From Acidobacteriota bacterium (GTDB taxonomy: Bacteria; Acidobacteriota; CAIWXX01): DNA of 64,000 nucleotides. Positions 49,666 to 63,767 of this stretch are shown piece by piece (within the stretch, counting starts at the first letter, position 1; every line of letters begins with the position of its first letter). The position numbers and the translations under genes are program-made. The stretch is taken from NCBI GenBank assembly GCA_040755995.1, contig JBFMAF010000036.1:1-64000 (forward strand), in the 5' to 3' direction. Under the pieces are notes generated by a model, which had not been told where the DNA came from, searched no databases, and saw only the letters and a program-made list of their open reading frames with translations.

Positions 49666-50733
49666 CTACCTTGGGTCTCTCCCGGAAGAGCTCGAGTCGT
49701 CACTCAAGCGATCGTGGATATCGAGAACCTCCTGCCAGTTCTCCGCCAATGCTCTCACGCACTCAGGATCGAGCTGAGTCTGAGCCAGGCGGCGCAGCAC
49801 TTCCAGGGCGCTTTCGGGCTTCAGAGGGTGCTGGTACGGGCGCGGAGATACCTGGGCATCGAACGCGTCTGCTACTGCCACGATACGGGCGCGGATTGGA
49901 ATGGCGTCGCCTTTGAGCCCGTTCGGATAGCCCGAGCCATCGAGTTTCTCGTGGTGACAGAGCGCGATCTCGGCCGCCGCCCGCAGCACCATGGAGTCGC
50001 TGTCTTTCAACATACTGTGTCCAAACACGGTATGCTGCCACATGACCTCCTGCTCATCCTCCGTCAGCGGGCCGGGTTTCAGGAGCACAGAGTCGGGGAT
50101 TGCCACCTTCCCCAGGTCGTGCATCAACGCTGCGTCCGACAGCAATTCCTGCTCCTCCTCCGGCATCCCCATGTTCCGGGCGATGTGCCTGCTGTACTCG
50201 GCAATGCGCATGAGGTGCGAGCTGTTGGCGCAATCCTTGCACCCGGCTGCCCGCGAAAGGCGCACTATGGTCTCCCTTTCCCGCGCCGCAATTTCAGCTA
50301 CGGCCTTCTTGACCTCACCCGTCAGCCACTCGGCGCGTTCGGCGAGTTGAAGCTGTGACCGGCGGAGCAACAGCATGTTCAGGGCTCTTGCGATGAACTC
50401 GACCGGATCGATTGGTTTGGCCAGGAAGTCGTTCGCCCCCAACTGGAACGCCCGGTATCGAAGCTCCCGCTCATCGGTGGAAGTCACTACTATAACTGGG
50501 ATCTCAGCCCTGGATGGGAATCCCTTGAACCGGCTCACGATCTTCAAGCTCTCGGGTTCGAGCGTCAGATTGTCGATGATCACCAGGTCGGGCTCTTGCT
50601 GGGCGCAGTACTCGATCCCTTCGGCCGAAGTCGCAAAGGCGACCGCCGTCACATCACCGAGCCTCCGTACCAGCTCTTCGAGCATCTGAGCGTTGAGTGG
50701 GTTGTCGCCCACAATCATCATCACATCTGCCAT
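49666..50733 (-). CDS. Response regulator with HD-GYP domain (RpfG-like)
   Basis: REC GANDFLAKP; MHDLGK, HHEKLDGSGYP, ADAFDA, RPY. Confidence 0.92.
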   Translation of the reverse strand: MADVMMIVGDNPLNAQMLEELVRRLGDVTAVAFATSAEGIEYCAQQEPDLVIIDNLTLEPESLKIVSRFKGFPSRAEIPVIVVTSTDERELRYRAFQLGANDFLAKPIDPVEFIARALNMLLLRRSQLQLAERAEWLTGEVKKAVAEIAARERETIVRLSRAAGCKDCANSSHLMRIAEYSRHIARNMGMPEEEQELLSDAALMHDLGKVAIPDSVLLKPGPLTEDEQEVMWQHTVFGHSMLKDSDSMVLRAAAEIALCHHEKLDGSGYPNGLKGDAIPIRARIVAVADAFDAQVSPRPYQHPLKPESALEVLRRLAQTQLDPECVRALAENWQEVLDIHDRLSDDSSSSGRDPR

Positions 50734-52610: not shown

Positions 52611-54200
52611 CTACAGCACGCTCTTCAGAATGGCGTCGCACTCGTCCTTGTCGACGTCCATTACGAACTGGATGCCGCTGATGTCGGCGGCTTCCTTGGT
52701 CAGGCTGGCGATGTCGTCGCGACGGATATGCTCGAGCGAGAACTTGCGGTTGCCGGCCATGAGCTGGCGCAGCCCCTGCGCGAGGCGCTCGTAGTAGGTG
52801 TAGAGGCCGATCGCGCCGCACGGCAGCTTCTCGAACTCCACATCGCCCAGCTCGCGCCTGAGCTCGGCGGCCGTCACGAAGATCTCGTCCTTGGTGCTTC
52901 CGAACCGCTCGACGTAAACCGGCAGCTCGTGCTCCTCCATGGCACGTCCAATGGTCTTCCCGACCATCGCCGCGGCGATCGGTGCGCGCGCCATGCCGAC
53001 CATCTTCACGTACGGTGCGCCCAGCGCGAGACCCTTGAAGATCTGGTCCTCGAACGTGAACCCGCCCGCCACCACCACCGCCGGTACGTGCGCGCCCTTG
53101 TCGGCGATCCGCTTCGTATGCTGATAGAGCAGCGAGTGCAGCTCGACCGGCGGCACGCCCCACTCGTTCATCATCCGCCAGGGGCTCATGCCGGTGCCGC
53201 CTCCAGCGCCGTCCACAGTCAGCATGTCGAGCTTGTACTTCGAGCAGAACGCAACGGCTCGCGCGAGATCCGCCGGGCGGTACGCCCCGGTCTTCAAGAA
53301 GATGTACTTCGCGCCCGCCTTGCGCAGCTCGGCGATCCTCTGCGCGAAGCCCTCCTCCGACACCATCCCGACTCTGGAGTGCCGCTCGAACTCCTTGAAC
53401 ACACCGCGCTCGAACGCCCTGATCGCGACCGGATCGGTCGGATTCGGAAGAACGATGTAGCCGCGCTCGTACAGTATCTGCGCCTTCTTGAGGTTGTTGA
53501 TCTTGACCTCGCCGCCGATGTCCTTCGCCCCCTGGCCCCACTTCAGCTCCACGATCTCGACGCCGAGCTTCTCTATCGCGTACTCCTGCACGCCCAGGCG
53601 CGTGTCCTCGACGTTCGCCTGCACGATGATGGCGCCGTAGCTGTCATGCTGGTGATCCTTGTACAGCTTCACCCGCCGCTTCAGGTCCACCGTGTCGACG
53701 ACACGCCCGTGCTTGAACGTAGCGTCGGGGTCCATGCCGACCACGTTCTCGCCGATCGTCACGCCCGTGCCGGCGATGGCCGACCCCGAGGCGATGCCTT
53801 CCCAGTTGTTCTTCGCGATGTTGGTCGATCCGATGCCGGGGATGATCCAAGGCAGCTTGAACTTGATCCCCTTGTCGTGACCGAGCGCCACCTCGAGATT
53901 CACTTTTGGGAAAATCGCCTTGTCGCTGTCGGCCTCGATCCCGTGCGCGCCGACGGCCGTGCCCATGATGTTGAAGTGCGAGTAGTCGACCGGGTACATC
54001 TTCTCGCCCGCCGTCGTGATGACGCCGAACGGCTGCGGGTAGATCACCTCGTGCCCGCGATAAGCCGACTTGCCGATCTCGCACATGCCGACGCAGCCGT
54101 CGACACAGGTGACGCACATGCCGGATGTCGGGACGATGGACTGTTCGGTACGGTTCTTGGTCAGAGTTGCAGCGGAAGCATTAATTCTCGTCAATGACAT
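52611..54200 (-). CDS. FMN-binding glutamate synthase family protein (stand-alone, no amidotransferase domain)
   Basis: CxxCxxxCxxxC N-terminus, TIGEN, ELKWGQGAK.IGGE, DGAGGGTGMSP, AGG. Confidence 0.9.
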   Translation of the reverse strand: MSLTRINASAATLTKNRTEQSIVPTSGMCVTCVDGCVGMCEIGKSAYRGHEVIYPQPFGVITTAGEKMYPVDYSHFNIMGTAVGAHGIEADSDKAIFPKVNLEVALGHDKGIKFKLPWIIPGIGSTNIAKNNWEGIASGSAIAGTGVTIGENVVGMDPDATFKHGRVVDTVDLKRRVKLYKDHQHDSYGAIIVQANVEDTRLGVQEYAIEKLGVEIVELKWGQGAKDIGGEVKINNLKKAQILYERGYIVLPNPTDPVAIRAFERGVFKEFERHSRVGMVSEEGFAQRIAELRKAGAKYIFLKTGAYRPADLARAVAFCSKYKLDMLTVDGAGGGTGMSPWRMMNEWGVPPVELHSLLYQHTKRIADKGAHVPAVVVAGGFTFEDQIFKGLALGAPYVKMVGMARAPIAAAMVGKTIGRAMEEHELPVYVERFGSTKDEIFVTAAELRRELGDVEFEKLPCGAIGLYTYYERLAQGLRQLMAGNRKFSLEHIRRDDIASLTKEAADISGIQFVMDVDKDECDAILKSVL

Positions 54201-54301
54201 GGTTCTTTACTCCTTTCCTCGCGAGGCCGCAGCCTCGATATGAAGGGCCGCCCCGCGGGCCGCCCGGATGGTTTCTCCAACGGTCTGACGGATACACATG
54301 A

Positions 54302-54979
54302 CTAGTCTTTCTTGATCTCGCACGCGACGCACGGCGACATGAAGCACATCATGTCGTCGAACCCCTCCTTCTCGAGACACGGCGGGCTCAAGTTGGCGCA
54401 GCCGCCGCAGATGGCCTTGTCGGGTTCGGTGTACGTGCAGCGCAGCTGGCAGGCCGGGCAGACGTAGATGCATCCGCCGCACAGGCGGCAGACCTCCGAG
54501 CTGATGTCGAACGGAGTCGTGATGCGCCGGTGGTCGCCGCGCGCGGTGAACCCGATCGCCCCCGCCGCCATCTGCTCCTTGCACATCCGCACGCACAGAC
54601 CGCAGAGAATACAGTCCTCGTGTTCCTGGCGGAATCGTTGCTGGCGTACCTCATGGGCGGAGGCAAGATCCTGGATGATCTTGGATTGCGGGCACGAGGC
54701 CAGCAGCAGCTCCAGGATCATCTTGCGCGCGCGCACGACACGGTTGGATGCAGTGCGCACCACCGCCCCTTCCTCGGCCGGGTACGTGCACGAAGAGACC
54801 AACCTCGCCTTGGCGCCCTGGCCGATCTCGACCACGCACAGGCGACAGGCTCCGTAGGGCGTCAGGCCCTCCATGTGGCACAGGGTGGGGATGGGGAAGC
54901 CGAGGAACCTGGCCGCCTCAAGCAGCGTCGTGCCTTTTTCGACGGATACGGGCAACCCGTTGATCTTGATGTTGATCAC
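54302..54979 (-). CDS. NuoG/HydA N-terminal-like Fe-S subunit
   Basis: PTLC...GACRLC...SC (2Fe-2S); CILCGLCVRMC and CRLCGGCIYVCP; Cys-rich tail. Confidence 0.9.
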   Translation of the reverse strand: MINIKINGLPVSVEKGTTLLEAARFLGFPIPTLCHMEGLTPYGACRLCVVEIGQGAKARLVSSCTYPAEEGAVVRTASNRVVRARKMILELLLASCPQSKIIQDLASAHEVRQQRFRQEHEDCILCGLCVRMCKEQMAAGAIGFTARGDHRRITTPFDISSEVCRLCGGCIYVCPACQLRCTYTEPDKAICGGCANLSPPCLEKEGFDDMMCFMSPCVACEIKKD

Positions 54980-57900
54980 TGGGCACCTCCTGCATGGACA
55001 GTAGTTTCTTCGGGCTGTGGAGCCGGCTTGGTGAAGGCGAGGTCGCAGCGCAGACAGCGCCGCGCCTCACGCGCCGCCTGCTCCAGCGTGAACGCCTTCT
55101 CGACCTCGACGAAGCCGCTCAGCCTCTCGCATGTCGGCAGACGAGGCAGCTCGACGCGCCGCGCGGGTTCGGCGGCCTCGGGCTCGGGAGCGAGCGGTTC
55201 GACGTAGACGCTCGGCCTTCGCAGCTGCTCCGGTTGGGCCAGCACCTCCCGCCGCAGGTAGCGGTCGATCATCACCGCCGCCCTCTTTCCAGCAGCGATG
55301 GCATCCACCACGGTGTTGGGTCCGGTGACCACGTCGCCACCCGCGAACACCCCGGCGCGGTTCGTAAGCAGGGTGTCGGAATCGATCTTCACAGTGCCGC
55401 CTGCGGTGACCTCGATGCGGTTGACGCCGGCCACCGCGATGCAGTCCGTGTCGGAACCCTCGCTGATCGCCACGATCAGCGTATCGACCGGCACGCTGTA
55501 CTCTGTTCCTGGGATCGGCACAGGGCGGCGGCGACCGCTGGCATCGACCTCGCCCAGGCTGTTCTTGATCAGTTCGATCCCAGTGATGCTGCCATCCTTG
55601 GTGAGGATCCTCGTTGGCGCGGTGAGCGTCTTGATCGACACGCCCTCCTGCTCAGCGGCCTCCACCTCCTCGGCGAACGCCGGCATCTCCTTGAGCGTGC
55701 GGCGGTAGTATATCGTCACACTTTCTACGCCCGGCTGCCGCTTGGCGGTGCGCGCCGCGTCCACCGCGGAGTTGCCGCCGCCGACAACGGCCACACGGCC
55801 CCTGGCGAGTTGCTCCCCACGCTGGTTGTGCGCCTTCAGAAAGCTGATCGATGGGATCACACCCTTGGCATCCTCGCCGTCCAGGCCCAGGCGCAGGCTC
55901 TTGTGCGCTCCCAGCGCGACGAATATTGCGCCGTACCCCTTCTCGAACAGCGAGTCGAGGGTGATGTCGCGCCCCAGAGTGCTGTTGCAGACCAGAGTGA
56001 CATTCTCATCCAGAAGCGAGGCAATCTCCTTCCGCATGACCTCACGCGGCAGGCGATAGCCTGGGATAGCCGAGAACATCATGCCGCCCGGCTCGGCGTC
56101 CTGCTCGTAGACGGTGACCTTGTACCCTCTGAGAGACAGGTAGTGAGCCGCCGAAAGACCGGCGGGCCCCGACCCGATCACCGCGACTGGAGGTGACCCT
56201 GGAGGCGCACTGGTGTGGCGCACTGGTTTGAAGCTCATAGGATCGATGTTGTCGGTGATGAAGCGCTTGAGGGCGCGGATTGCGACCGGGTCGCCGCCCG
56301 TGGCCCCGGCCCGGCAGCGCTCCTCGCACGGATGATTGCACACTCGAGCACAGACGGACGGGAACGGGTTGGCTTCACGGATCGCCTGGTACGCCTCCTG
56401 GTACTCTCCGCGGCCAATGTGCGCGACGTATCGCCAGGCCTCGGTGCCCAACGGGCAGGCGGACTGGCAAGGAGCGCCGACCAGGTCGTTGCACACGAAG
56501 GCGTCGCACCGCTTGTGCACGATGTGCCGCTCGTACTCCTTGCGGAAGTAGCGCAGAGTGGAGAGAACCGGGTTCGACGCCGTCTGCCCCAGCCCGCACA
56601 TGCTCGTGTCCTTGACCACCTCAGCCAGCTCCTGCAGCAGCTTCAGCTGCGCCAGGGTCGCCTTGCCCTTGGACACGTCGTCGAGGATCTCCCACATGCG
56701 CTGCGTGCCCTTGCGGCAAGTGAAGCACTTCCCGCAGGACTCATCTTTGAGGAAGTTCATGAAGTACCTGGCGACGTCCACCATGCAGGTGTCTTCGTCC
56801 ATGACGATCATGCCGCCGGAACCCATGATCGAGCCTGCCTGAACCAGCGAATCGAAGTCTATCGGGAGGTCGAACATGGAGGCGGGTATGCAGCCTCCTG
56901 AGGGGCCGCCGGTCTGCACCGCCTTGACCTTGGCTCTTCCTGGTGCACCTCCGCCGATCTCGTGTACCACCTGGCGGATCTTGATCCCGAGGGGAACCTC
57001 GACCAGGCCGGTGTTGCGGATTTTCCCGACGAGCGAGAATATCTTCGTCCCGCTGTTGCCCGGCACGCCCACCTTGACGTACTCGGCCGCACCGTCTCTG
57101 ATGATGACTGGGACGTTGGCGAAGGTTTCCACGTTGTTGATGCAGGTGGGGCACCCGTCGATGCCTTTCTCGATCGGGTATGGCGGCCGCTGCCTGGGCT
57201 CGCCCCGGTAGCCCATCACGGACCTTATCAGGGCCGTCTCCTCTCCGCACACGAAAGCCCCGGCGCCACGCACGATCTCGATGTCGAAGCTGATACTTGT
57301 TCCGAGGATGTTCTCGCCCAGGAGACCATAGTCGTGCGCCTGCCTGAGGGCAATCGTGGTGTGCTTGATCGCAAGCGGGTACTCGCTGCGCACGTAGACG
57401 ATCCCACGGCTGGCGCCGATGGCGATGGCTCCAATGATCATCCCCTCGATGATGGCGTGCGGGTTGCCTTCCAGCAGACTGCGATCCATGTAAGCGCCGG
57501 GGTCACCCTCATCGCAGTTGCATACGATGTACTTCCGGCCCCCGCCGTTTCCAGCCGCACGGGCCAACTGCCACTTCATCCCCGTGAGGAATCCGGCACC
57601 ACCACGCCCGCGCAATCCCGATGCCTTGACCTCTGCCACGATCCACGCCGGATCGATCTTGCTGAGCACCTTCTCAAGCGCGGCGTAGCCGCCCTGGTCG
57701 AAGTAGTTCTCTATGCGTATCGGATCGAGCTGTTGGTTGCTGCCCAGGATCGTCCGCGTCTGGCTCTTGAAGAACGGAATGTCGCTCTGGCAGTGGTACT
57801 TCACCGTGGCGTGCGGCTCCCGGTACAGAAGGTCCTCCTCCACGTAGCCGCCCAACGCAGAGTTGATCACGCGCGGCACGTCCTCCATCTTCAACCTCGG

Positions 57901-58167
57901 ATACAGGTGCTGGCCGGGTTCCACCACGATGAACGGGTCCATCTCGCAGAACCCCTGGCAACCTGTGATCCTGAGCTGGATCTTGTCTTGAAGGTTGTGT
58001 TCCAGGATGTGGCGCTTGATGACCCTCATGATGTCGTTGGAGCCGCTGGCCTGGCCGCCCGTGCCCGCGCACAGCACGAGGGTGGGTCTTGCGGGCCGCG
58101 CGCTCTTCACTTCCTGGACGCGCCTGCGGAAGCTGATGAGTTCGTCAACCGATGTCAGTCTGACCAT
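54976..58167 (-). CDS. NuoF/HydB-like FMN subunit fused to GltD/NfnB-like FAD/NADPH oxidoreductase
   Basis: GLRGRGGAGF, CDEGDPGAYMD, CGEET, GGPSGG, SCGKCxxC; then PCQSACP, CARVC..PCE..C, GSGPAG, GGGNSA, YRR. Confidence 0.93.
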   Translation of the reverse strand: MVRLTSVDELISFRRRVQEVKSARPARPTLVLCAGTGGQASGSNDIMRVIKRHILEHNLQDKIQLRITGCQGFCEMDPFIVVEPGQHLYPRLKMEDVPRVINSALGGYVEEDLLYREPHATVKYHCQSDIPFFKSQTRTILGSNQQLDPIRIENYFDQGGYAALEKVLSKIDPAWIVAEVKASGLRGRGGAGFLTGMKWQLARAAGNGGGRKYIVCNCDEGDPGAYMDRSLLEGNPHAIIEGMIIGAIAIGASRGIVYVRSEYPLAIKHTTIALRQAHDYGLLGENILGTSISFDIEIVRGAGAFVCGEETALIRSVMGYRGEPRQRPPYPIEKGIDGCPTCINNVETFANVPVIIRDGAAEYVKVGVPGNSGTKIFSLVGKIRNTGLVEVPLGIKIRQVVHEIGGGAPGRAKVKAVQTGGPSGGCIPASMFDLPIDFDSLVQAGSIMGSGGMIVMDEDTCMVDVARYFMNFLKDESCGKCFTCRKGTQRMWEILDDVSKGKATLAQLKLLQELAEVVKDTSMCGLGQTASNPVLSTLRYFRKEYERHIVHKRCDAFVCNDLVGAPCQSACPLGTEAWRYVAHIGRGEYQEAYQAIREANPFPSVCARVCNHPCEERCRAGATGGDPVAIRALKRFITDNIDPMSFKPVRHTSAPPGSPPVAVIGSGPAGLSAAHYLSLRGYKVTVYEQDAEPGGMMFSAIPGYRLPREVMRKEIASLLDENVTLVCNSTLGRDITLDSLFEKGYGAIFVALGAHKSLRLGLDGEDAKGVIPSISFLKAHNQRGEQLARGRVAVVGGGNSAVDAARTAKRQPGVESVTIYYRRTLKEMPAFAEEVEAAEQEGVSIKTLTAPTRILTKDGSITGIELIKNSLGEVDASGRRRPVPIPGTEYSVPVDTLIVAISEGSDTDCIAVAGVNRIEVTAGGTVKIDSDTLLTNRAGVFAGGDVVTGPNTVVDAIAAGKRAAVMIDRYLRREVLAQPEQLRRPSVYVEPLAPEPEAAEPARRVELPRLPTCERLSGFVEVEKAFTLEQAAREARRCLRCDLAFTKPAPQPEETTVHAGGAQ

Positions 58168-58179
58168 CTCGAATCTCCA

Positions 58180-59028
58180 TTAGAGCTCAGGGCCGGTGGC
58201 CGTCAGGTCAAGCATGTGGTTCCGGCAACCCCGGCGTGAGCAGAATTGCACAATGCCGCCACCGCGTATGATCATCGGCACCATCGGCGCATCGCACTCG
58301 ACGCAGGGCGGCGCACCGGCGAGCTCGGCGTTGCAGTGGGGGCAGAAGAAGTTGGCCGCCTCGCCCGCAGGAATCTCGTACTCGGTCTCGACGCTGTACG
58401 AGCCGTAGAGGCAGGAGAGCAGCACCCAGCCGCGTCTGTCTCGGAAGGAGACGGTGACCCTGACCCCAGGGAGGCCGTCCACGAGATGGGCCGGGTCCAT
58501 TAAGGTGTGACCACAACGGCCACAGGAAAGATCCACGGGGAAGACACGCCTATCGGTGTGGATGTCGATCTTGTCGAGCCCCTCTCTGGCCTTGTTCAGG
58601 ATGCGAGAGACCGACGTGGCCCCAACATTGGAGAAGTAGTGCCCGTCCACGACAACGATGGGCCCAAGGGCGCAGCCGCCGAGGCAGTTCTGCGTCTCCA
58701 GCGTGAATTCGCGGTCCGCCGTTGTGTCACCGGCCTTCACTCGGAGCTGGCGTTCAAGCTCCTCCGAGACCTTGGGCGCCCCCCGCACGTGGCACGCCGT
58801 TCCCAGACAGCAGGTGACCAGGTGCTTCCCGCGCGGCTTGAGACTGAACGCCCGGAAGAACGTGGCGACTCCATAGACGTCGACCAGCGAGCGGCCCGTC
58901 CTCTCGGCCACCGTCCGCAACGCTTCCGCAGGCAAGTATGAGTACTTCGTCTGAATCTCCTGCAGTATGGCGAGCAGATCGCCCCGCTCCCCGCTGTGCT
59001 TCTCGATAATCCTGGCAATCTCGCTCAT
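58180..59028 (-). CDS. NuoE/HydC-like [2Fe-2S] subunit with Cys-rich C-terminal extension
   Basis: CLGTACHVRG, CLGGCALGP; extension CGRC, CPHC, CVEC, CSRRGC; RBS GGAGG before ATG 59028. Confidence 0.92.
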   Translation of the reverse strand: MSEIARIIEKHSGERGDLLAILQEIQTKYSYLPAEALRTVAERTGRSLVDVYGVATFFRAFSLKPRGKHLVTCCLGTACHVRGAPKVSEELERQLRVKAGDTTADREFTLETQNCLGGCALGPIVVVDGHYFSNVGATSVSRILNKAREGLDKIDIHTDRRVFPVDLSCGRCGHTLMDPAHLVDGLPGVRVTVSFRDRRGWVLLSCLYGSYSVETEYEIPAGEAANFFCPHCNAELAGAPPCVECDAPMVPMIIRGGGIVQFCSRRGCRNHMLDLTATGPEL

Positions 59029-59129
59029 GCTTGCCACCTCCATGATGACGACTGGATGTCCTCAGGGACAGAGATGGGAGCACCTTCCCGGTGCTTCTCT
59101 ATCGCGCTGAGGACGCTTTCCGCTTTCAT
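59025..59129 (-). CDS. 34-aa upstream ORF coupled to the NuoE-like gene
   Basis: GGGAGGAATAA-ATG; MKAESVLSAIEKHREGAPISVPEDIQSSSWRWQA; TGA overlaps the downstream ATG. Confidence 0.5.
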   Translation of the reverse strand: MKAESVLSAIEKHREGAPISVPEDIQSSSWRWQA

Positions 59130-59469: not shown

Positions 59470-60312
59470 CTACCAGCGCGGATCCTCCTGGTGGGACAGG
59501 CCATCGAAGAACAGGCGATGAAACATGCGGCTCCGTCCGGTCTCGAGGTCGGCTTCGCGCGCGATACGGAGTCTCGCGTCGAGCAGGCTGTCGGCGGTCG
59601 GCTCGACGCCGGCCTCAGGGTCGAGCCGCTCGAGATTCTCTCCCCGCCGGTCTTTCGGAACGCCGTTTCGGAGGCTCAGGCAGAGATCGCATCGCCCCTT
59701 TGGGTCGGTCAGGCGGCAGAGCCCGTTGAGCGCCCGCTTCATCTCCGAGCGCGCACCTGCCAGTAACTCGGTGGCGACGGAGCCCGATACGTCGACAGCC
59801 TCGGCGCACTCCGCTATGTCCAGCCCGAACAGCTCCTTCATCATCAGAACGGCCTGCGAATGCGGTGGCAGCGTTCGCCCGATGCACGTCAAACAGAACG
59901 CCACGTGTTCGCGAACATCGAATTCGAAACCCGGGTCGGATTTGATTCGCGAAAAACGGCGGGTCGCCTCCGGGTCGGCGATTGCCGCCCGGCTGGCTAT
60001 CTTCTGCGCGTCCACCCTCCAGCGCCTCCGCGTCGAGAGGTACTCGAAGCACAGGCGCGTGGCCAGCTTGAAGAGCCAGACGCGGAGGGCGCGGGGAGGC
60101 GGATCGCGCCGCACACGCTCGGCTACCGACACCAGCACATCCTGCGTGAGATCCTCTCCATCCTCCCAATGACCGACCATCCTGTACAGGTACGCGAGCA
60201 GCGGCGTTCGCCATGGCATGATCAGATCACTGAACGCATCCTCATCACCCTGATGCGCGCGCAGGAAGATGTCTCCGTCCTGTGGAACTGCTGGAAGCGG
60301 ATGAATCGGCAT
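59470..60312 (-). CDS. ECF sigma factor with Cys-containing C-terminal extension
   Basis: GDEDAF, EDLTQD, WLFKLATR, region 4; LCRLTDPKGRCDLC. Confidence 0.85.
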   Translation of the reverse strand: MPIHPLPAVPQDGDIFLRAHQGDEDAFSDLIMPWRTPLLAYLYRMVGHWEDGEDLTQDVLVSVAERVRRDPPPRALRVWLFKLATRLCFEYLSTRRRWRVDAQKIASRAAIADPEATRRFSRIKSDPGFEFDVREHVAFCLTCIGRTLPPHSQAVLMMKELFGLDIAECAEAVDVSGSVATELLAGARSEMKRALNGLCRLTDPKGRCDLCLSLRNGVPKDRRGENLERLDPEAGVEPTADSLLDARLRIAREADLETGRSRMFHRLFFDGLSHQEDPRW

Positions 60313-60453
60313 CTCGAACTCTCCGTGAGCATGATAGCACGTCGCCGATGCCGAGTGGGACCGCGGCGCGGGCGTGCGGGTCTGCCGCCCCATACGCCCC
60401 GATGCGAGAGCACTGCGTCGGGCCGCGGGCGCCGCAAGAATGCCGGTGCCGGC

Positions 60454-62064: not shown

Positions 62065-62412
62065 CTACACCAGCAGCCCCGAGTGGTCGAGAACACGGTC
62101 AGCCCACTTCTTCGCCTGAAAAGAAAGGAGCGTGCGCTGCAGGGGATGGGGCTGGGTCTCGGTCCAGATGCGGCGCCACAACGCCAGCTCAACCTGGATA
62201 TCTACGAGCTCGGCTGCGAGATCGGGATCGGCATCCGCCGCGCTCCACTCGATATAGTACCGGCACTCATCCATCATCTGCAGGGCACTCTCGGCGCCCG
62301 TCTCGCGTCGGGCGCAGGATGCGATTCGCGCGAGCGATGCGGAGAGCCCTCCCAGCCGCCGCGGGAGCGGATCTCTCATGAAGCGTTCACGCATGCGATC
62401 GAGATCCCTCAT
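62065..62412 (-). CDS. Hypothetical helical protein coupled to DUF5674 gene
   Basis: ATGA overlap, RBS GGAGG; RLGGLSASLARI...YIEW. Confidence 0.75.
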   Translation of the reverse strand: MRDLDRMRERFMRDPLPRRLGGLSASLARIASCARRETGAESALQMMDECRYYIEWSAADADPDLAAELVDIQVELALWRRIWTETQPHPLQRTLLSFQAKKWADRVLDHSGLLV

Positions 62413-62750
62413 TGCGCCCCTCCCAGCAGCCGTCTCGCTGTCTGGTCGATCACATCGCGTGTCTGTTGGCTCTGGACCACCGGGCTGCGATTCCCGAGCC
62501 GAGGGCGGATATTGATCAGCGACTCATACTCGACACGCCCATCCGCAGGGTACCAGTTCGCACCCCACAGGTCGTCCTGCTCACTGCCGTCCCCCAGGAG
62601 AATGGATTCGCAATCCGCGTGCATCTCGCCGCCGCCCGCGAGTACGCCTCGACGGATATCGACCACGATCTTGATCATCTGCCGGTGTTCCCCGAGCATC
62701 TCACCGAGCTGGGACGGCGTGGCGCGCTCGTGGAGCAGGTGGATCGGCAT
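62409..62750 (-). CDS. DUF5674-family protein
   Basis: IKIVVDI...GGEMHADCE..LL..GS.Q.DLWGAN...SLINIRP..GNRS. Confidence 0.85.
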   Translation of the reverse strand: MPIHLLHERATPSQLGEMLGEHRQMIKIVVDIRRGVLAGGGEMHADCESILLGDGSEQDDLWGANWYPADGRVEYESLINIRPRLGNRSPVVQSQQTRDVIDQTARRLLGGAQ

Positions 62751-62868
62751 ACTCTGTCTCCAGCCCAGAATAGACCAAGTCGCGATGCATCACAACTGGC
62801 GCCGCGGTTCCGCGAGGACCCCAATCCGCCGGCATTTTCCTTGCGTCTCTCGACATGGACGCGGGCGG

Positions 62869-62911
62869 CGCGCCTGCCCGTCGAACTATGCGCGCAGGCG
62901 CGTTCTATAAT
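62869..62911 (+). promoter_or_regulatory. Promoter with inverted repeat upstream of TA pair
   Basis: CGCGCCTGC-16-GCAGGCGCG followed by TATAAT 62906-62911. Confidence 0.55.
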
Positions 62912-62973
62912 CAAAGCATACATGGGCGTATGAGATCGGCCAGATGGTGCACGATGTGAGGCGGAGGTAGACG

Positions 62974-63246
62974 ATGCCAACTGAGATGTTGACCTTGGCG
63001 ATCCCACCCTCGCTGGCTAAGGAGCTCGACACGGCTAGCCAGGAACTCCTGGTCGAGTTGTTGGAACGGGGGCTGCGAGAAATGAAGATTGATCGTGCCC
63101 TCAATCAATATGCTCGCGGCGGCATGTCATTCGGTGCCGCGGCACACCAGGCGGGTGTCTCGCAGTCGGAACTCGCGCGGCACGCGTACGCGCGGGGAAT
63201 GGAACCTCCCACCAGCATCGAGACTCTGCGAGAAGAGTTGCGTTGA
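62974..63246 (+). CDS. UPF0175-family putative antitoxin
   Basis: Y..G.MSFGAAAHQAGVS HTH; overlaps the PIN gene. Confidence 0.82.
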   Translation: MPTEMLTLAIPPSLAKELDTASQELLVELLERGLREMKIDRALNQYARGGMSFGAAAHQAGVSQSELARHAYARGMEPPTSIETLREELR

Positions 63247-63767
63247 GCGATCCGCCGGTCGCAATCTGCAATTCGGGTCCATTGATTGCTCTCGGGAAGT
63301 TGAACCGCTTGGACCTTCTGGAACCCGTGTTCGGCGAAGTCGAGATCACGCAAGAGGTCTACAGGGAAGTCGTCGAGGAGGGGCAAGCGCTCGGCGCGCC
63401 CGATGCGCTGAGCGTTCGCATGTTTTGGGAGAGCCGAGGGTGGCCCATCATCCAAGTGCCAGAGTCAGTGCTGTCCAAGTACACTCAGCATCCGATCCTC
63501 GGCCCAGGTGAGCGCGAGGTGATTGCTCTCGCGCTCGCCATAAAGAGCCCGTTGGTACTCCTTGATGACGAGGTGGCTCGTTCAGAGGCGCGTCGTTTGA
63601 GATTGGATCTCTGCGGCACGCTTGGAGTTCCGGTGCGCGCATTCCGCGGCCGCTTGCTGTCGTTCGAACAGGTTGCCTTCCTTCTCCAAGAGATAGCTGC
63701 CCGGCCGGACATCTGGATATCAGCGCGGCTCTGCGAGGACGTCCTGAACGAGCTTCGGCGTCCGTAG
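63243..63767 (+). CDS. DUF3368 PIN-domain putative toxin
   Basis: NSGPLIAL, LGPGEREVI, LLDD..AR, GTLG. Confidence 0.88.
   Translation: MSDPPVAICNSGPLIALGKLNRLDLLEPVFGEVEITQEVYREVVEEGQALGAPDALSVRMFWESRGWPIIQVPESVLSKYTQHPILGPGEREVIALALAIKSPLVLLDDEVARSEARRLRLDLCGTLGVPVRAFRGRLLSFEQVAFLLQEIAARPDIWISARLCEDVLNELRRP

What the first reader, a model, noticed from the sequence alone, without database searches (positions are those of the whole stretch)
52611..59028. Candidate electron-bifurcating glutamate synthase/dehydrogenase: HydABC-type core + GltD module + stand-alone FMN synthase domain
Seen: four tightly spaced co-oriented genes (NuoE-like, NuoF-GltD fusion, NuoG-like, FMN glutamate-synthase family). 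No hydrogenase H-cluster, molybdopterin or glutamine amidotransferase domain is encoded, and there are no membrane subunits. Known: HydABC-type cores couple NAD(H) and ferredoxin to a catalytic module; GltD supplies NADPH electrons to the GltB FMN domain. The NuoF part has bifurcating-type features (GAYMD, GGPSG, DTC...H..KRC....C extra metal site). Inference: a soluble complex with three flavin sites linking NADH/NADPH/possibly ferredoxin to glutamine-independent 2-oxoglutarate amination or glutamate oxidation. I do not know of a biochemical description of this combination.
Basis: partly seen in the sequence, partly recalled or inferred. Interest (0 to 1): 0.8.

Follow-up and report, generated by a model that had tools for sequence, protein, structure and literature searches.

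The report
Bfu-type redox complex, glutamate-synthase-like subunit
Four linked genes encode an unstudied iron-sulfur flavoenzyme, widespread in uncultured anaerobic bacteria, that wires the NADH module of electron-bifurcating enzymes to a stripped-down relative of the glutamate synthase active site; it probably makes glutamate from ammonia without spending ATP, but no activity has been measured.

Summary
The four genes are real, and their order is strongly conserved: 55 of 55 close relatives with enough upstream DNA, across 15 phylum names, and 20 of 22 in a phylum sample. They encode BfuC, BfuB, a short Type 2 BfuA with an extra 8-cysteine tail, and an FMN barrel. The barrel keeps GltB's FMN and probable 2-oxoglutarate residues but lacks the glutaminase, [3Fe-4S] and coupling loop. 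Neighbours (gdh, glnA, nrpR, amt) point to glutamate/ammonia metabolism.

Main correction: the GltD-like module occupies the place of BfuB's ferredoxin-docking B3/B4 domain. In 25 of 80 relatives B3/B4 is there instead, and the two tails change at least 5 to 9 times on the tree. So this copy fails a defining Bfu feature and probably uses NADPH, not ferredoxin. That BfuB architecture is already described in silico for some hydrogenases.

Best reading (0.4): reductive amination of 2-oxoglutarate with free ammonia; substrate in the glutamate family about 0.7. I found no paper on the complex. The scan has reported this operon before on other genomes (63 windows).

The parts
58180..59028 (-). BfuC/NuoE-like subunit, 282 aa: C1 [2Fe-2S] ligands C74, C79, C115, C119, plus a C-terminal domain with 8 conserved Cys of unknown family (probably Zn-binding, inferred)
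   Evidence: PF01257 E 9e-44; ligands kept in 69-70 of 70 operon copies, extension in 58 of 70; Atlas gave only unnamed clusters under 0.9
56488..58167 (-). BfuB core (residues 1-560 of the 1063-aa protein): thioredoxin-like B5 domain with three Cys, FMN/NADH domain, B1 [4Fe-4S], B2/Zn site
   Evidence: Best PDB sequence hits are HydB 7q4v_B, 7t2r_B and WorB 9mqx_B, E under 1e-180; ligand table
54976..56487 (-). GltD/NfnA-like module fused to BfuB in place of B3/B4: two [4Fe-4S] (C567, C571, C606, C610, C614, C618, and C1038/C1041 from the C-terminus, so circularly permuted; inferred), FAD motif GSGPAG, NADP-type motifs GGGNSA and YRR
   Evidence: PF14691 and PF07992; matches the NADP module of NfnA/StnC, 9n5u_A, 9bov_A, 8oh5_C; motif counts in 57 fused copies
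54302..54979 (-). Short Type 2 BfuA, 225 aa: A1 [2Fe-2S], A2 and A4 [4Fe-4S], no His-ligated A3, plus a tail with 8 Cys (177-220), probably further metal sites linking to the catalytic subunit (inferred)
   Evidence: Closest solved relative WorA 9mqx_A by profile (E 2e-49) and by fold (Z 17.1, rmsd 4.2, 176 aligned, residues 1-178); tail Cys kept in 79-97 of 97 copies
52611..54200 (-). FMN (beta/alpha)8-barrel catalytic subunit, 529 aa, distant relative of the GltB synthase domain; N-terminal C29/C32/C36/C40 motif; no [3Fe-4S] Cys, no glutaminase
   Evidence: PF01645; AlphaFold model pLDDT 87.5; fold matches; profile alignment to GltB, probability 95.6; conservation
59025..59129 (-). Uncertain 34-codon ORF with a ribosome-binding-like site, overlapping the bfuC start; weakly like the BfuC N-terminus; may be a remnant
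   Evidence: local alignment score 28, reached by 14 of 1000 shuffles

Best explanation
The four proteins form one soluble complex (inferred from synteny). The FMN barrel binds 2-oxoglutarate, which condenses with free ammonia to 2-iminoglutarate; reduced FMN then hands over a hydride to give L-glutamate. This is the synthase half-reaction of glutamate synthase, run without a glutaminase (inferred). Electrons arrive through B1-A1-A2-A4, the 8-Cys tail of BfuA and the N-terminal 4-Cys cluster of the barrel (path inferred by analogy with WorABCSL). They enter from NADH at the BfuB FMN and from a second, stronger reductant at the low-potential port. That reductant is NADPH through the fused FAD module in this copy, and reduced ferredoxin through B3/B4 in about a third of relatives. 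The stronger reductant would let the cell fix ammonium at lower concentrations than an NADH-linked glutamate dehydrogenase can, without the ATP cost of glutamine synthetase. Shown: genes, domains, ligands, synteny, tail swap, neighbours. Inferred: complex, substrate, nitrogen donor, direction, coupling. Strict two-donor coupling: about 0.3 for this NADPH-type copy, about 0.65 for B3/B4 copies.
For: Synteny in 55 of 55 and 20 of 22 loci. Barrel residues align to GltB (1EA0 numbering): E151=E886, Q194=Q909, K220=K931, K226=K937, K303=K999, T336=T1030. An RHS motif (R273) matches GltB R957-H-S by motif. K226, R273, E151, Q194 and K303 are unchanged in 85 of 85 operon copies, and RHSR and ExKWGQGAK in 82 of 82 sister-set proteins. 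That K937, R957 and T1030 bind 2-oxoglutarate is recalled, not from a call. GltS gives the highest identity among the listed Foldseek matches (17% against 11-15%) and the longest structural alignment (350 residues). Neighbours: gdh in 9 of 80 and nrpR in 3 of 80 top loci; gdh or glnA in 8 of 29 phylum loci, where about 0.4 genes would be expected (my arithmetic: 94 genes in 85 Mb); core nitrogen genes in 35 of 80 loci of the stand-alone sister clade. No GltB1-type glutaminase was found with one query in 23 of 26 operon genomes. No other strong PF01645 match was found in 21 of 29 genomes with the barrel gene. Thermodynamics with assumed concentrations: the couple falls from -278 mV at 1 mM to -337 mV at 10 uM ammonium, below NADH (-280 mV) but above the NADH/ferredoxin mean (-390 mV).
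Against: No activity data. By structure alone the barrel is as close or closer to IPP isomerase type 2 and the hydroxy-acid oxidases (Z 25-27) as to GltS (Z 24.3). The profile reaches GltS in the PDB only at E 0.18. hhalign did not itself align R273 to R957, and S859 falls on G124. K220 and the GTG motif were part of my selection filters. All 30 genomes tested have a glutamate-dehydrogenase-family gene, and G000 also has a split GltB, so the role would be redundant. The shortage of other glutamate synthases is modest (8 of 29 against 40 of 80 without the gene), and kin are not independent. 69 of 80 top loci show no core nitrogen gene nearby, and the window's copy has none. With NADH plus NADPH the mean potential (-325 mV) is worse than NADPH alone, so strict coupling gives this copy no obvious gain.
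Confidence: 0.4

Rival explanations
1. The electron wiring is as described, but the barrel acts on another substrate: a different 2-oxo/imino acid, an N-alkyl amino acid or a 2-hydroxy acid. The nitrogen neighbours would reflect amino-acid metabolism in general.
For: Fold matches to flavocytochrome b2, lactate, glycolate and mandelate oxidases and IDI-2 tie with or exceed GltS. Identity to GltS in the structural alignments is only 16-17%. A divergent stand-alone clade (4 sequences, among them A. noterae and P. acidaminophilum) has changed G229, E231, R273-R276 and M338, so the family can change its site. PF01645 also holds the N-methylglutamate synthase subunit (recalled).
Against: The GltB-type ExKWGQGAK, GGE, RHS and GGGTGxSP motifs are all kept in order. 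The enriched neighbours are specifically gdh, glnA, nrpR, amt, P-II and gltB pieces.
Confidence: 0.24
2. It is a true glutamate synthase (glutamine + 2-oxoglutarate to 2 glutamate) whose ammonia comes from a glutaminase encoded elsewhere, for example a HisH/HisF pair or another amidotransferase, completing a GS/GOGAT cycle.
For: glnA lies directly upstream, on the same strand, in 3 of 29 phylum loci. All 27 genomes tested have a glutamine synthetase family gene, and most lack another glutamate synthase. In the sister clade hisF is near in 15 of 80 loci, hisH in 5 of 80 and GltB1-type genes in 3 of 80.
Against: No hisF or hisH in the 109 top and phylum loci, and a GltB1-like hit in only 1 (L051). 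The loop that couples to the glutaminase in GltB (PPPHHD..E978) is deleted. With glutamine as donor NADH alone would suffice, so a low-potential port would be unnecessary (inference). The printed HisF copies keep normal cyclase motifs.
Confidence: 0.15
3. It runs oxidatively in amino-acid catabolism: glutamate is oxidised at the FMN barrel, and the electrons go to NAD+ and NADP+ (this copy) or to NAD+ alone.
For: It is often next to gdh genes, some of which may be catabolic. At about 10 uM ammonium the couple (-337 mV) lies near the NADH/NADPH mean (-325 mV). Sigma-54 promoters in 20 of 74 loci and NtrBC-like genes fit an inducible pathway as well as nitrogen control.
Against: For B3/B4 copies, oxidation split to NAD+ and ferredoxin (mean -390 mV) is uphill at all ammonium levels computed. 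nrpR, amt, P-II and glnA neighbours are marks of assimilation.
Confidence: 0.13
4. The first three genes form a self-contained NADPH:NAD+ transhydrogenase or diaphorase, and the barrel is a co-regulated but separate enzyme fed by a soluble carrier.
For: BfuB::GltD has both nucleotide sites in one chain. The sister clade stands without adjacent bfu genes: 0 of 26 loci with at least 5.2 kb upstream have the set. One close copy (L119, 70% identity, 5'-truncated) also lacks them, and L083 has gdh directly before bfuA.
Against: BfuA has no catalytic domain, and its A2/A4 clusters and near-invariant 8-Cys tail lead nowhere without a partner. bfuA directly precedes the barrel gene in 77 of 80 top loci, the other 3 ending at the contig edge. 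B3/B4 copies have no NADP site.
Confidence: 0.08

Closest known systems
Type 2 Bfu enzymes, above all WorABCSL of Acetomicrobium mobile (PDB 9MQX; PMC9304861, PMC12318220)
   Same: BfuC, BfuB core, short BfuA with A1/A2/A4, a separate catalytic subunit; WorA is the nearest solved BfuA and also has a C-terminal metal motif that couples to the catalytic module
   Different: The catalytic subunit is an FMN barrel, not a tungstopterin enzyme; the tail has 8 Cys and did not align to WorA beyond residue 178; B3/B4 is replaced here; no glutamate-linked member appears in the main text of the Bfu survey (0 hits for 'glutamate')
Glutamate synthase synthase domain (GltB / Fd-GltS; PDB 1EA0, 6S6S, 1OFD, 7MFM; PF01645)
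   Same: FMN barrel with aligned FMN and probable 2-oxoglutarate residues; electrons from NADPH via a GltD-type FAD/2x[4Fe-4S] module, or from ferredoxin
   Different: No glutaminase, central or beta-helix domain; no [3Fe-4S] ligands; no PPPHHD/E978 loop; a new N-terminal 4-Cys motif and a roughly 30-residue insert before RHS; only 16-17% structural identity
Sub-type I BfuB of Hydrogenedentota [FeFe]-hydrogenases (PMC11406978, in silico)
   Same: B3/B4 domain replaced by DPD_II plus an FAD/NAD(P) domain at the BfuB C-terminus
   Different: There BfuA carries an H-cluster; here the partner is a GltB-like barrel. That paper proposes a second bifurcating FAD; here the repeated B3/B4 swap suggests that NADP(H) stands in for ferredoxin
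Nfn-Bfu / Stn transhydrogenase (PDB 9N5U, 9BOV, 8OH5; PMC7483475, PMC12018979)
   Same: Closely related circularly permuted NADP/FAD module; a B5 site with lost cysteines is tolerated
   Different: In Nfn-Bfu the module sits in BfuA on the mid-potential side and B3/B4 is kept; here it sits on BfuB at the low-potential side, and there is a fourth, catalytic subunit
Putative F420-dependent glutamate synthases FGltS(I/II) of methanogens (PMC3448663)
   Same: A stand-alone 'glutamate synthase' subunit paired with another electron module; an FrhB-like fusion to this barrel family exists (P0240)
   Different: Also uncharacterised; whether their beta subunit is this family was not tested

Membership tests
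Bfu electron-bifurcating family (Schut 2022) | BfuC with C1 [2Fe-2S] | tested here: met
   C74, C79, C115, C119; kept in 69-70 of 70
Bfu electron-bifurcating family (Schut 2022) | BfuB FMN/NADH domain and B1 [4Fe-4S] | tested here: met
   PF01512 and PF10589; C478, C481, C484, C524
Bfu electron-bifurcating family (Schut 2022) | B2 site ligands (3 Cys + His; Thr or Cys) | tested here: met
   C461, H548, C554, C559, T488; kept in both tail types
Bfu electron-bifurcating family (Schut 2022) | B5 site in the N-terminal thioredoxin domain | tested here: inconclusive
   C33, C70, C74 present, the second Cys replaced by Gly; StnB also lacks Cys here and T. sibiricus NfnB has Zn there
Bfu electron-bifurcating family (Schut 2022) | C-terminal B3/B4 2x[4Fe-4S] ferredoxin-docking domain | tested here: not met
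   Replaced by the GltD-like module in this copy; 0 of 57 fused copies have a C-terminal dicluster motif; present in 25 of 80 relatives
Bfu electron-bifurcating family (Schut 2022) | A202 and M204 near the NADH site | tested here: met
   A225 and M227, 80 of 80
Bfu electron-bifurcating family (Schut 2022) | Conserved Phe (F182 in the paper; F180 of 7t2r_B by my count) | tested here: not met
   L201 here; mostly L or M in relatives
Bfu Type 2 | BfuA with A1, A2, A4 only and no catalytic domain | tested here: met
   225 aa, no HxxxCxxC motif; nearest WorA
Bfu electron-bifurcating family (Schut 2022) | Tightly coupled NAD(H) and ferredoxin turnover by a purified complex | not testable with these tools
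   Needs co-purification and assay
Glutamate synthase (GltB/GltD, Fd-GltS) | PurF-type glutaminase, central and GXGXG domains | tested here: not met
   None in the four proteins; no longer fused form found (weak evidence); GltB1-like hit near only 1 of 109 loci
Glutamate synthase (GltB/GltD, Fd-GltS) | FMN (beta/alpha)8 barrel with E886, Q909, K931, K999 equivalents | tested here: met
Glutamate synthase (GltB/GltD, Fd-GltS) | 2-oxoglutarate ligands K937, R957, T1030 (roles recalled) | tested here: inconclusive
   K226 and T336 aligned; R273 by RHS motif only; S859 falls on G124 next to conserved S125
Glutamate synthase (GltB/GltD, Fd-GltS) | [3Fe-4S] cysteine triplet after the barrel | tested here: not met
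   No Cys at the aligned positions
Glutamate synthase (GltB/GltD, Fd-GltS) | Glutamine-dependent glutamate synthesis | not testable with these tools
   Assay needed
Nfn-Bfu / Stn | NADP/FAD module inside BfuA with B3/B4 kept on BfuB | tested here: not met
   The module is fused to BfuB; BfuA is 225 aa
Sub-type I BfuB (PMC11406978) | DPD_II plus FAD/NAD(P) domain replacing B3/B4 | tested here: met
   PF14691 at 556-641, PF07992 at 661-960; common descent with those hydrogenase subunits was not tested

The most novel reading that the evidence does not exclude
A widespread, overlooked route of ATP-free, high-affinity ammonium assimilation in anaerobes: an electron-confurcating 'glutamate dehydrogenase' built on the glutamate synthase FMN barrel. 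It merges NADH with ferredoxin in B3/B4 copies, and with NADPH in copies like this one. It would be the first Bfu enzyme that makes a C-N bond, and the first whose low-potential branch ends in a pyridine nucleotide.
Probability: 0.22. Interest if true: 0.9.

Novelty: new variant of a known kind. Interest (0 to 1): 0.68.

Why it matters
Ammonium assimilation in bacteria is taught as two routes: low-affinity glutamate dehydrogenase, or ATP-consuming GS/GOGAT. This operon is kept at about 80% protein identity across at least 15 phylum names, and its catalytic family occurs in 138 of 251 sampled genomes of one anaerobic phylum. Its annotation as 'glutamate synthase' cannot be literally right, because the glutaminase and the [3Fe-4S] centre are missing. 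A third route would change how nitrogen metabolism of energy-starved sediment microbes is reconstructed. Whatever the substrate, the natural pairs with a B3/B4 tail or an NADP tail on near-identical cores (for example sister loci L111 and L114) give a ready test of an open question: what the low-potential branch of Bfu enzymes needs in order to bifurcate.

Tried and rejected
Complex prediction of the barrel (with alignment) and BfuA (no alignment): no answer, score 0.00, controls not folded. It is not counted for or against binding. RNA runs: no RNA holder listed.

PDB sequence search with the barrel: nothing significant. No NCBIfam family for it. No longer, fused homologues among 7998 candidates (weak evidence). 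The ESM Atlas gave no named family for the BfuC extension and only PF01645 clusters for the barrel. The fold search of the BfuA model did not cover the tail, so its fold is untested.

My first sigma-54 scan used a wrong spacing and found 0 of 75. The corrected scan found 20 of 74 against 0.86 in shuffles, none in the window's copy. No NrpR box was found upstream in 75 loci, and no sigma-70 promoter or terminator above chance in the window. The second PF01645 hit on C21 is IMP dehydrogenase-like, not a paralogue. PF00310 found nothing in G000 although a GltB1-like region exists on C47, so that model misses this type.

Papers on GltS active-site residues were not held, so ligand roles are recalled. 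Literature searches listed no paper whose title or abstract describes this complex. Subscription journals are mostly not covered. The Bfu survey's supplement was seen only as one 8,449-character file without hits, and its Table S1 may list these loci unnamed.

Rejected: hydrogenase, formate dehydrogenase or complex I module (no catalytic or membrane parts); canonical or archaeal split glutamate synthase; Nfn-Bfu.

Full report
OBSERVATION. Pfam gives a NuoE-type [2Fe-2S] domain, a NuoF-type chain continued by Fer4_20 and Pyr_redox_2, a [2Fe-2S] plus dicluster protein, and a partial Glu_synthase match (279-400, E 1.2e-15). No NCBIfam model reaches its cut-off. The window is contig C36 of a 7.7-Mb genome that is 99.8% complete.

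A CONSERVED UNIT. A protein search returned 8000 of 8000 scored candidates, the 120 listed at 80% identity or more. Of 598 confirmed genome hits, the best 80 were kept; they carry 15 phylum names. All 55 with at least 5.2 kb upstream have bfuC-bfuB-bfuA before the barrel gene. Of the 25 shorter ones, 22 have at least bfuA, 3 end at the contig edge, and L083 has gdh directly before bfuA. To avoid picking only close copies, I sampled the own phylum: 32 of 301 genomes match. I fetched 29 of the 31 other genomes' loci, and 20 of 22 with enough DNA keep the order; the exceptions are a truncated 70% copy and a 43% copy. In another anaerobic phylum 138 of 251 genomes carry the family, mostly at 42-59% identity. 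A sister set at about 50% identity stands without the upstream bfu set (0 of 26 long loci). The two cultured homologues I could read, in Peptoclostridium acidaminophilum and Acetoanaerobium noterae, also lack it. So the barrel family is wide, and the Bfu-linked form is its roughly 65%-plus branch.

THE ELECTRON MODULE. Residues 1-560 of the large subunit are closest to HydB and WorB. B1 ligands, the B2/Zn ligands, A225 and M227 are kept in nearly all of 80 operon copies. The conserved Phe is Leu, and the B5 site often has three Cys. The survey defining the family requires five BfuB clusters (PMC9304861: abstract, section 5 in full, passages of sections 4 and 6). Ferredoxin binds at the B3/B4 domain (PMC12018979, passages). 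Here the GltD-like module begins right after the last B2 ligand, where B3/B4 should be, and none of 57 fused copies has a C-terminal dicluster. It has eight cluster cysteines if the C-terminal RCLRC pair is counted, an FAD motif and NADP-type motifs, and it matches the NADP module of NfnA/StnC. In 25 of 80 near-complete BfuB copies the tail is the ordinary B3/B4 domain (frameshifted L081 left out, window copy counted). On a quick tree of the shared core the tail type needs 9 changes, at least 5 forced by strongly supported branches, and one well-supported sister pair differs. The direction of change is unknown. The module is therefore an exchangeable port for a second electron carrier, not a GltB partner. 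The same BfuB architecture was noted in silico in Hydrogenedentota hydrogenases, and the same paper recalls that a HydB without B3/B4 does not bifurcate (PMC11406978, passages). The third gene is a Type 2 BfuA nearest to WorA. Its tail has eight cysteines, six of them kept in 96-97 of 97 copies and the other two in 93 and 79. WorA uses a C-terminal zinc finger and helix to dock its catalytic module (PMC12318220, passages), so a linking role is plausible.

THE CATALYTIC SUBUNIT. The model (pLDDT 87.5; residues 1-70 weak) is an FMN-type barrel. IDI-2 and hydroxy-acid oxidases score Z 25-27; Azospirillum GltS scores Z 24.3 but aligns the most residues (350, rmsd 3.9). A profile alignment to six GltB-type domains (probability 95.6, E 4.5e-9), numbered through 1EA0, pairs E151/E886, Q194/Q909, K220/K931, K226/K937, K303/K999 and T336/T1030. 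The family's invariant RHS motif echoes GltB R957-H-S after an insert of about 30 residues, but hhalign did not align it. I recall K937, R957 and T1030 as 2-oxoglutarate ligands; the papers were not held. The [3Fe-4S] cysteines and the PPPHHD/E978 loop are gone, and a four-cysteine N-terminal motif is invariant. In GltS the FMN reduces 2-iminoglutarate formed from ammonia and 2-oxoglutarate, fed through the [3Fe-4S] cluster (PMC8097209, passages). This protein keeps the first half of that design and replaces the second.

CONTEXT. Among the top 80 loci: gdh 9, nrpR 3, any core nitrogen gene 11, a PPDK_N-domain protein 8, and a sigma-54 activator 39. A sigma-54 promoter motif lies upstream in 20 of 74 loci against 0.86 in shuffles, though not in the window. 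In the phylum set, gdh or glnA lies inside 8 of 29 fetched loci, where about 0.4 genes are expected by my arithmetic. In the sister set 35 of 80 loci hold nrpR (16), gdh (11), glnA (7), amt (5), P-II (3) or gltB pieces; hisF is in 15 and hisH in 5. These loci are not independent. Another glutamate synthase was found in 8 of 29 genomes with the barrel gene and 40 of 80 without (80 of the 269 negatives were tested). A GltB1-type glutaminase was found in 3 of 26. All tested genomes have GDH-family and GS-family genes, and G000 has a separate split GltB.

MECHANISM. With a recalled E0' of -130 mV and assumed 1 mM 2-oxoglutarate and 100 mM glutamate, the couple is -278 mV at 1 mM and -337 mV at 10 uM ammonium. 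NADH (-280 mV) stalls near 1 mM. NADH plus ferredoxin (mean -390 mV) or NADPH (-370 to -380 mV) pulls much further. This gives a reason to attach a glutaminase-free synthase barrel to a Bfu core, and makes oxidation split to NAD+ and ferredoxin unlikely. For this copy NADPH alone would beat the NADH/NADPH mean, so it may be an uncoupled NADPH-linked enzyme with a transhydrogenase side activity. My odds: ammonia-dependent glutamate synthesis 0.40, other substrate 0.24, GOGAT with a borrowed glutaminase 0.15, glutamate oxidation 0.13, no complex 0.08.

KNOWN AND NEW. It works like a Type 2 Bfu enzyme, but this copy is not a member by the published definition (no B3/B4), while about a third of its relatives meet that feature. 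It is not a glutamate synthase by definition. Ten searches listed no paper describing the complex. I also saw passages of PMC3448663, PMC5736913, PMC7483475 and PMC2725144. The survey's Table S1 was not visible. The scan has noted look-alikes in 63 windows of 62 genomes. What I tested myself: the repeated tail swap, the nitrogen context of the sister clade, the genome-level checks and the 2024 precedent for the fusion. Verdict: real, widespread, uncharacterised; new variant of a known kind; interest 0.68.

Noticed in passing
Upstream of bfuC in L010, L013, L046, L099 and others: A roughly 95-aa gene with two tandem CxxC-x6-C..(W/F)xCEE repeats precedes bfuC in 43 of 74 operon loci. It has no Pfam match in the copies scanned, is missing in the window, and was not found by motif in G000.
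   Followed up: partly
L178-L213 (for example L181:1451-5536, L192:6170-9584): In the stand-alone sister clade, hisF (15 of 80) and hisH (5 of 80) copies sit beside the barrel gene and nrpR; they could supply ammonia or simply share nitrogen control.
   Followed up: partly
P0240 (800 aa): Fusion of an FrhB-like F420 module to a distant member of the barrel family: a possible F420-linked version.
   Followed up: partly
L097:7868-11903 (Acetoanaerobium noterae): A divergent barrel (altered GGE and RHSR motifs) lies in an operon with two small NifX/NifB-like genes and two ferredoxin-bearing P-loop ATPases (read by eye); perhaps another substrate.
   Followed up: no
L029:12438-21576: A second bfuC / bfuB::GltD pair, followed by an 882-aa NuoG-like gene and a GltD-like gene, so the fused BfuB also serves other catalytic partners.
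   Followed up: no
L091:6425-12188 (G000 C47): A two-gene glutamate synthase: an 849-aa protein with a duplicated FMN-domain match, and an amidotransferase-GXGXG fusion, behind an ANTAR response regulator.
   Followed up: partly
L092:5370-9948, L093, L094 (G000 C42, C29, C26): Three more Bfu-type clusters with B3/B4 tails in this genome. One follows 2-oxoacid:ferredoxin oxidoreductase genes and precedes a ferritin-like gene (read by eye); one is near an [FeFe]-hydrogenase domain.
   Followed up: no
L013, L018, L026, L041, L050, L081, L084; L159, L160, L188: Large proteins with a PPDK_N domain, some with a receiver domain, recur beside gdh and the operon (8 of 80 and 9 of 80 loci); perhaps regulators of glutamate enzymes.
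   Followed up: no
L202, L206, L191, L208: Some loci carry two tandem paralogues of the barrel gene, and L208 has a B3/B4-type bfu trio on the opposite strand next to one.
   Followed up: no
window 59470-60393 and 49666-50733: An ECF-type sigma factor lies just upstream of the operon and an HD-GYP response regulator downstream; neither recurs in related loci.
   Followed up: partly
window 62409-63767: Several short genes (a DUF-like 113-aa ORF, a 90-aa ORF and a 174-aa PIN-like ORF) that look by eye like toxin-antitoxin or nucleotidyltransferase neighbours; not scanned.
   Followed up: no
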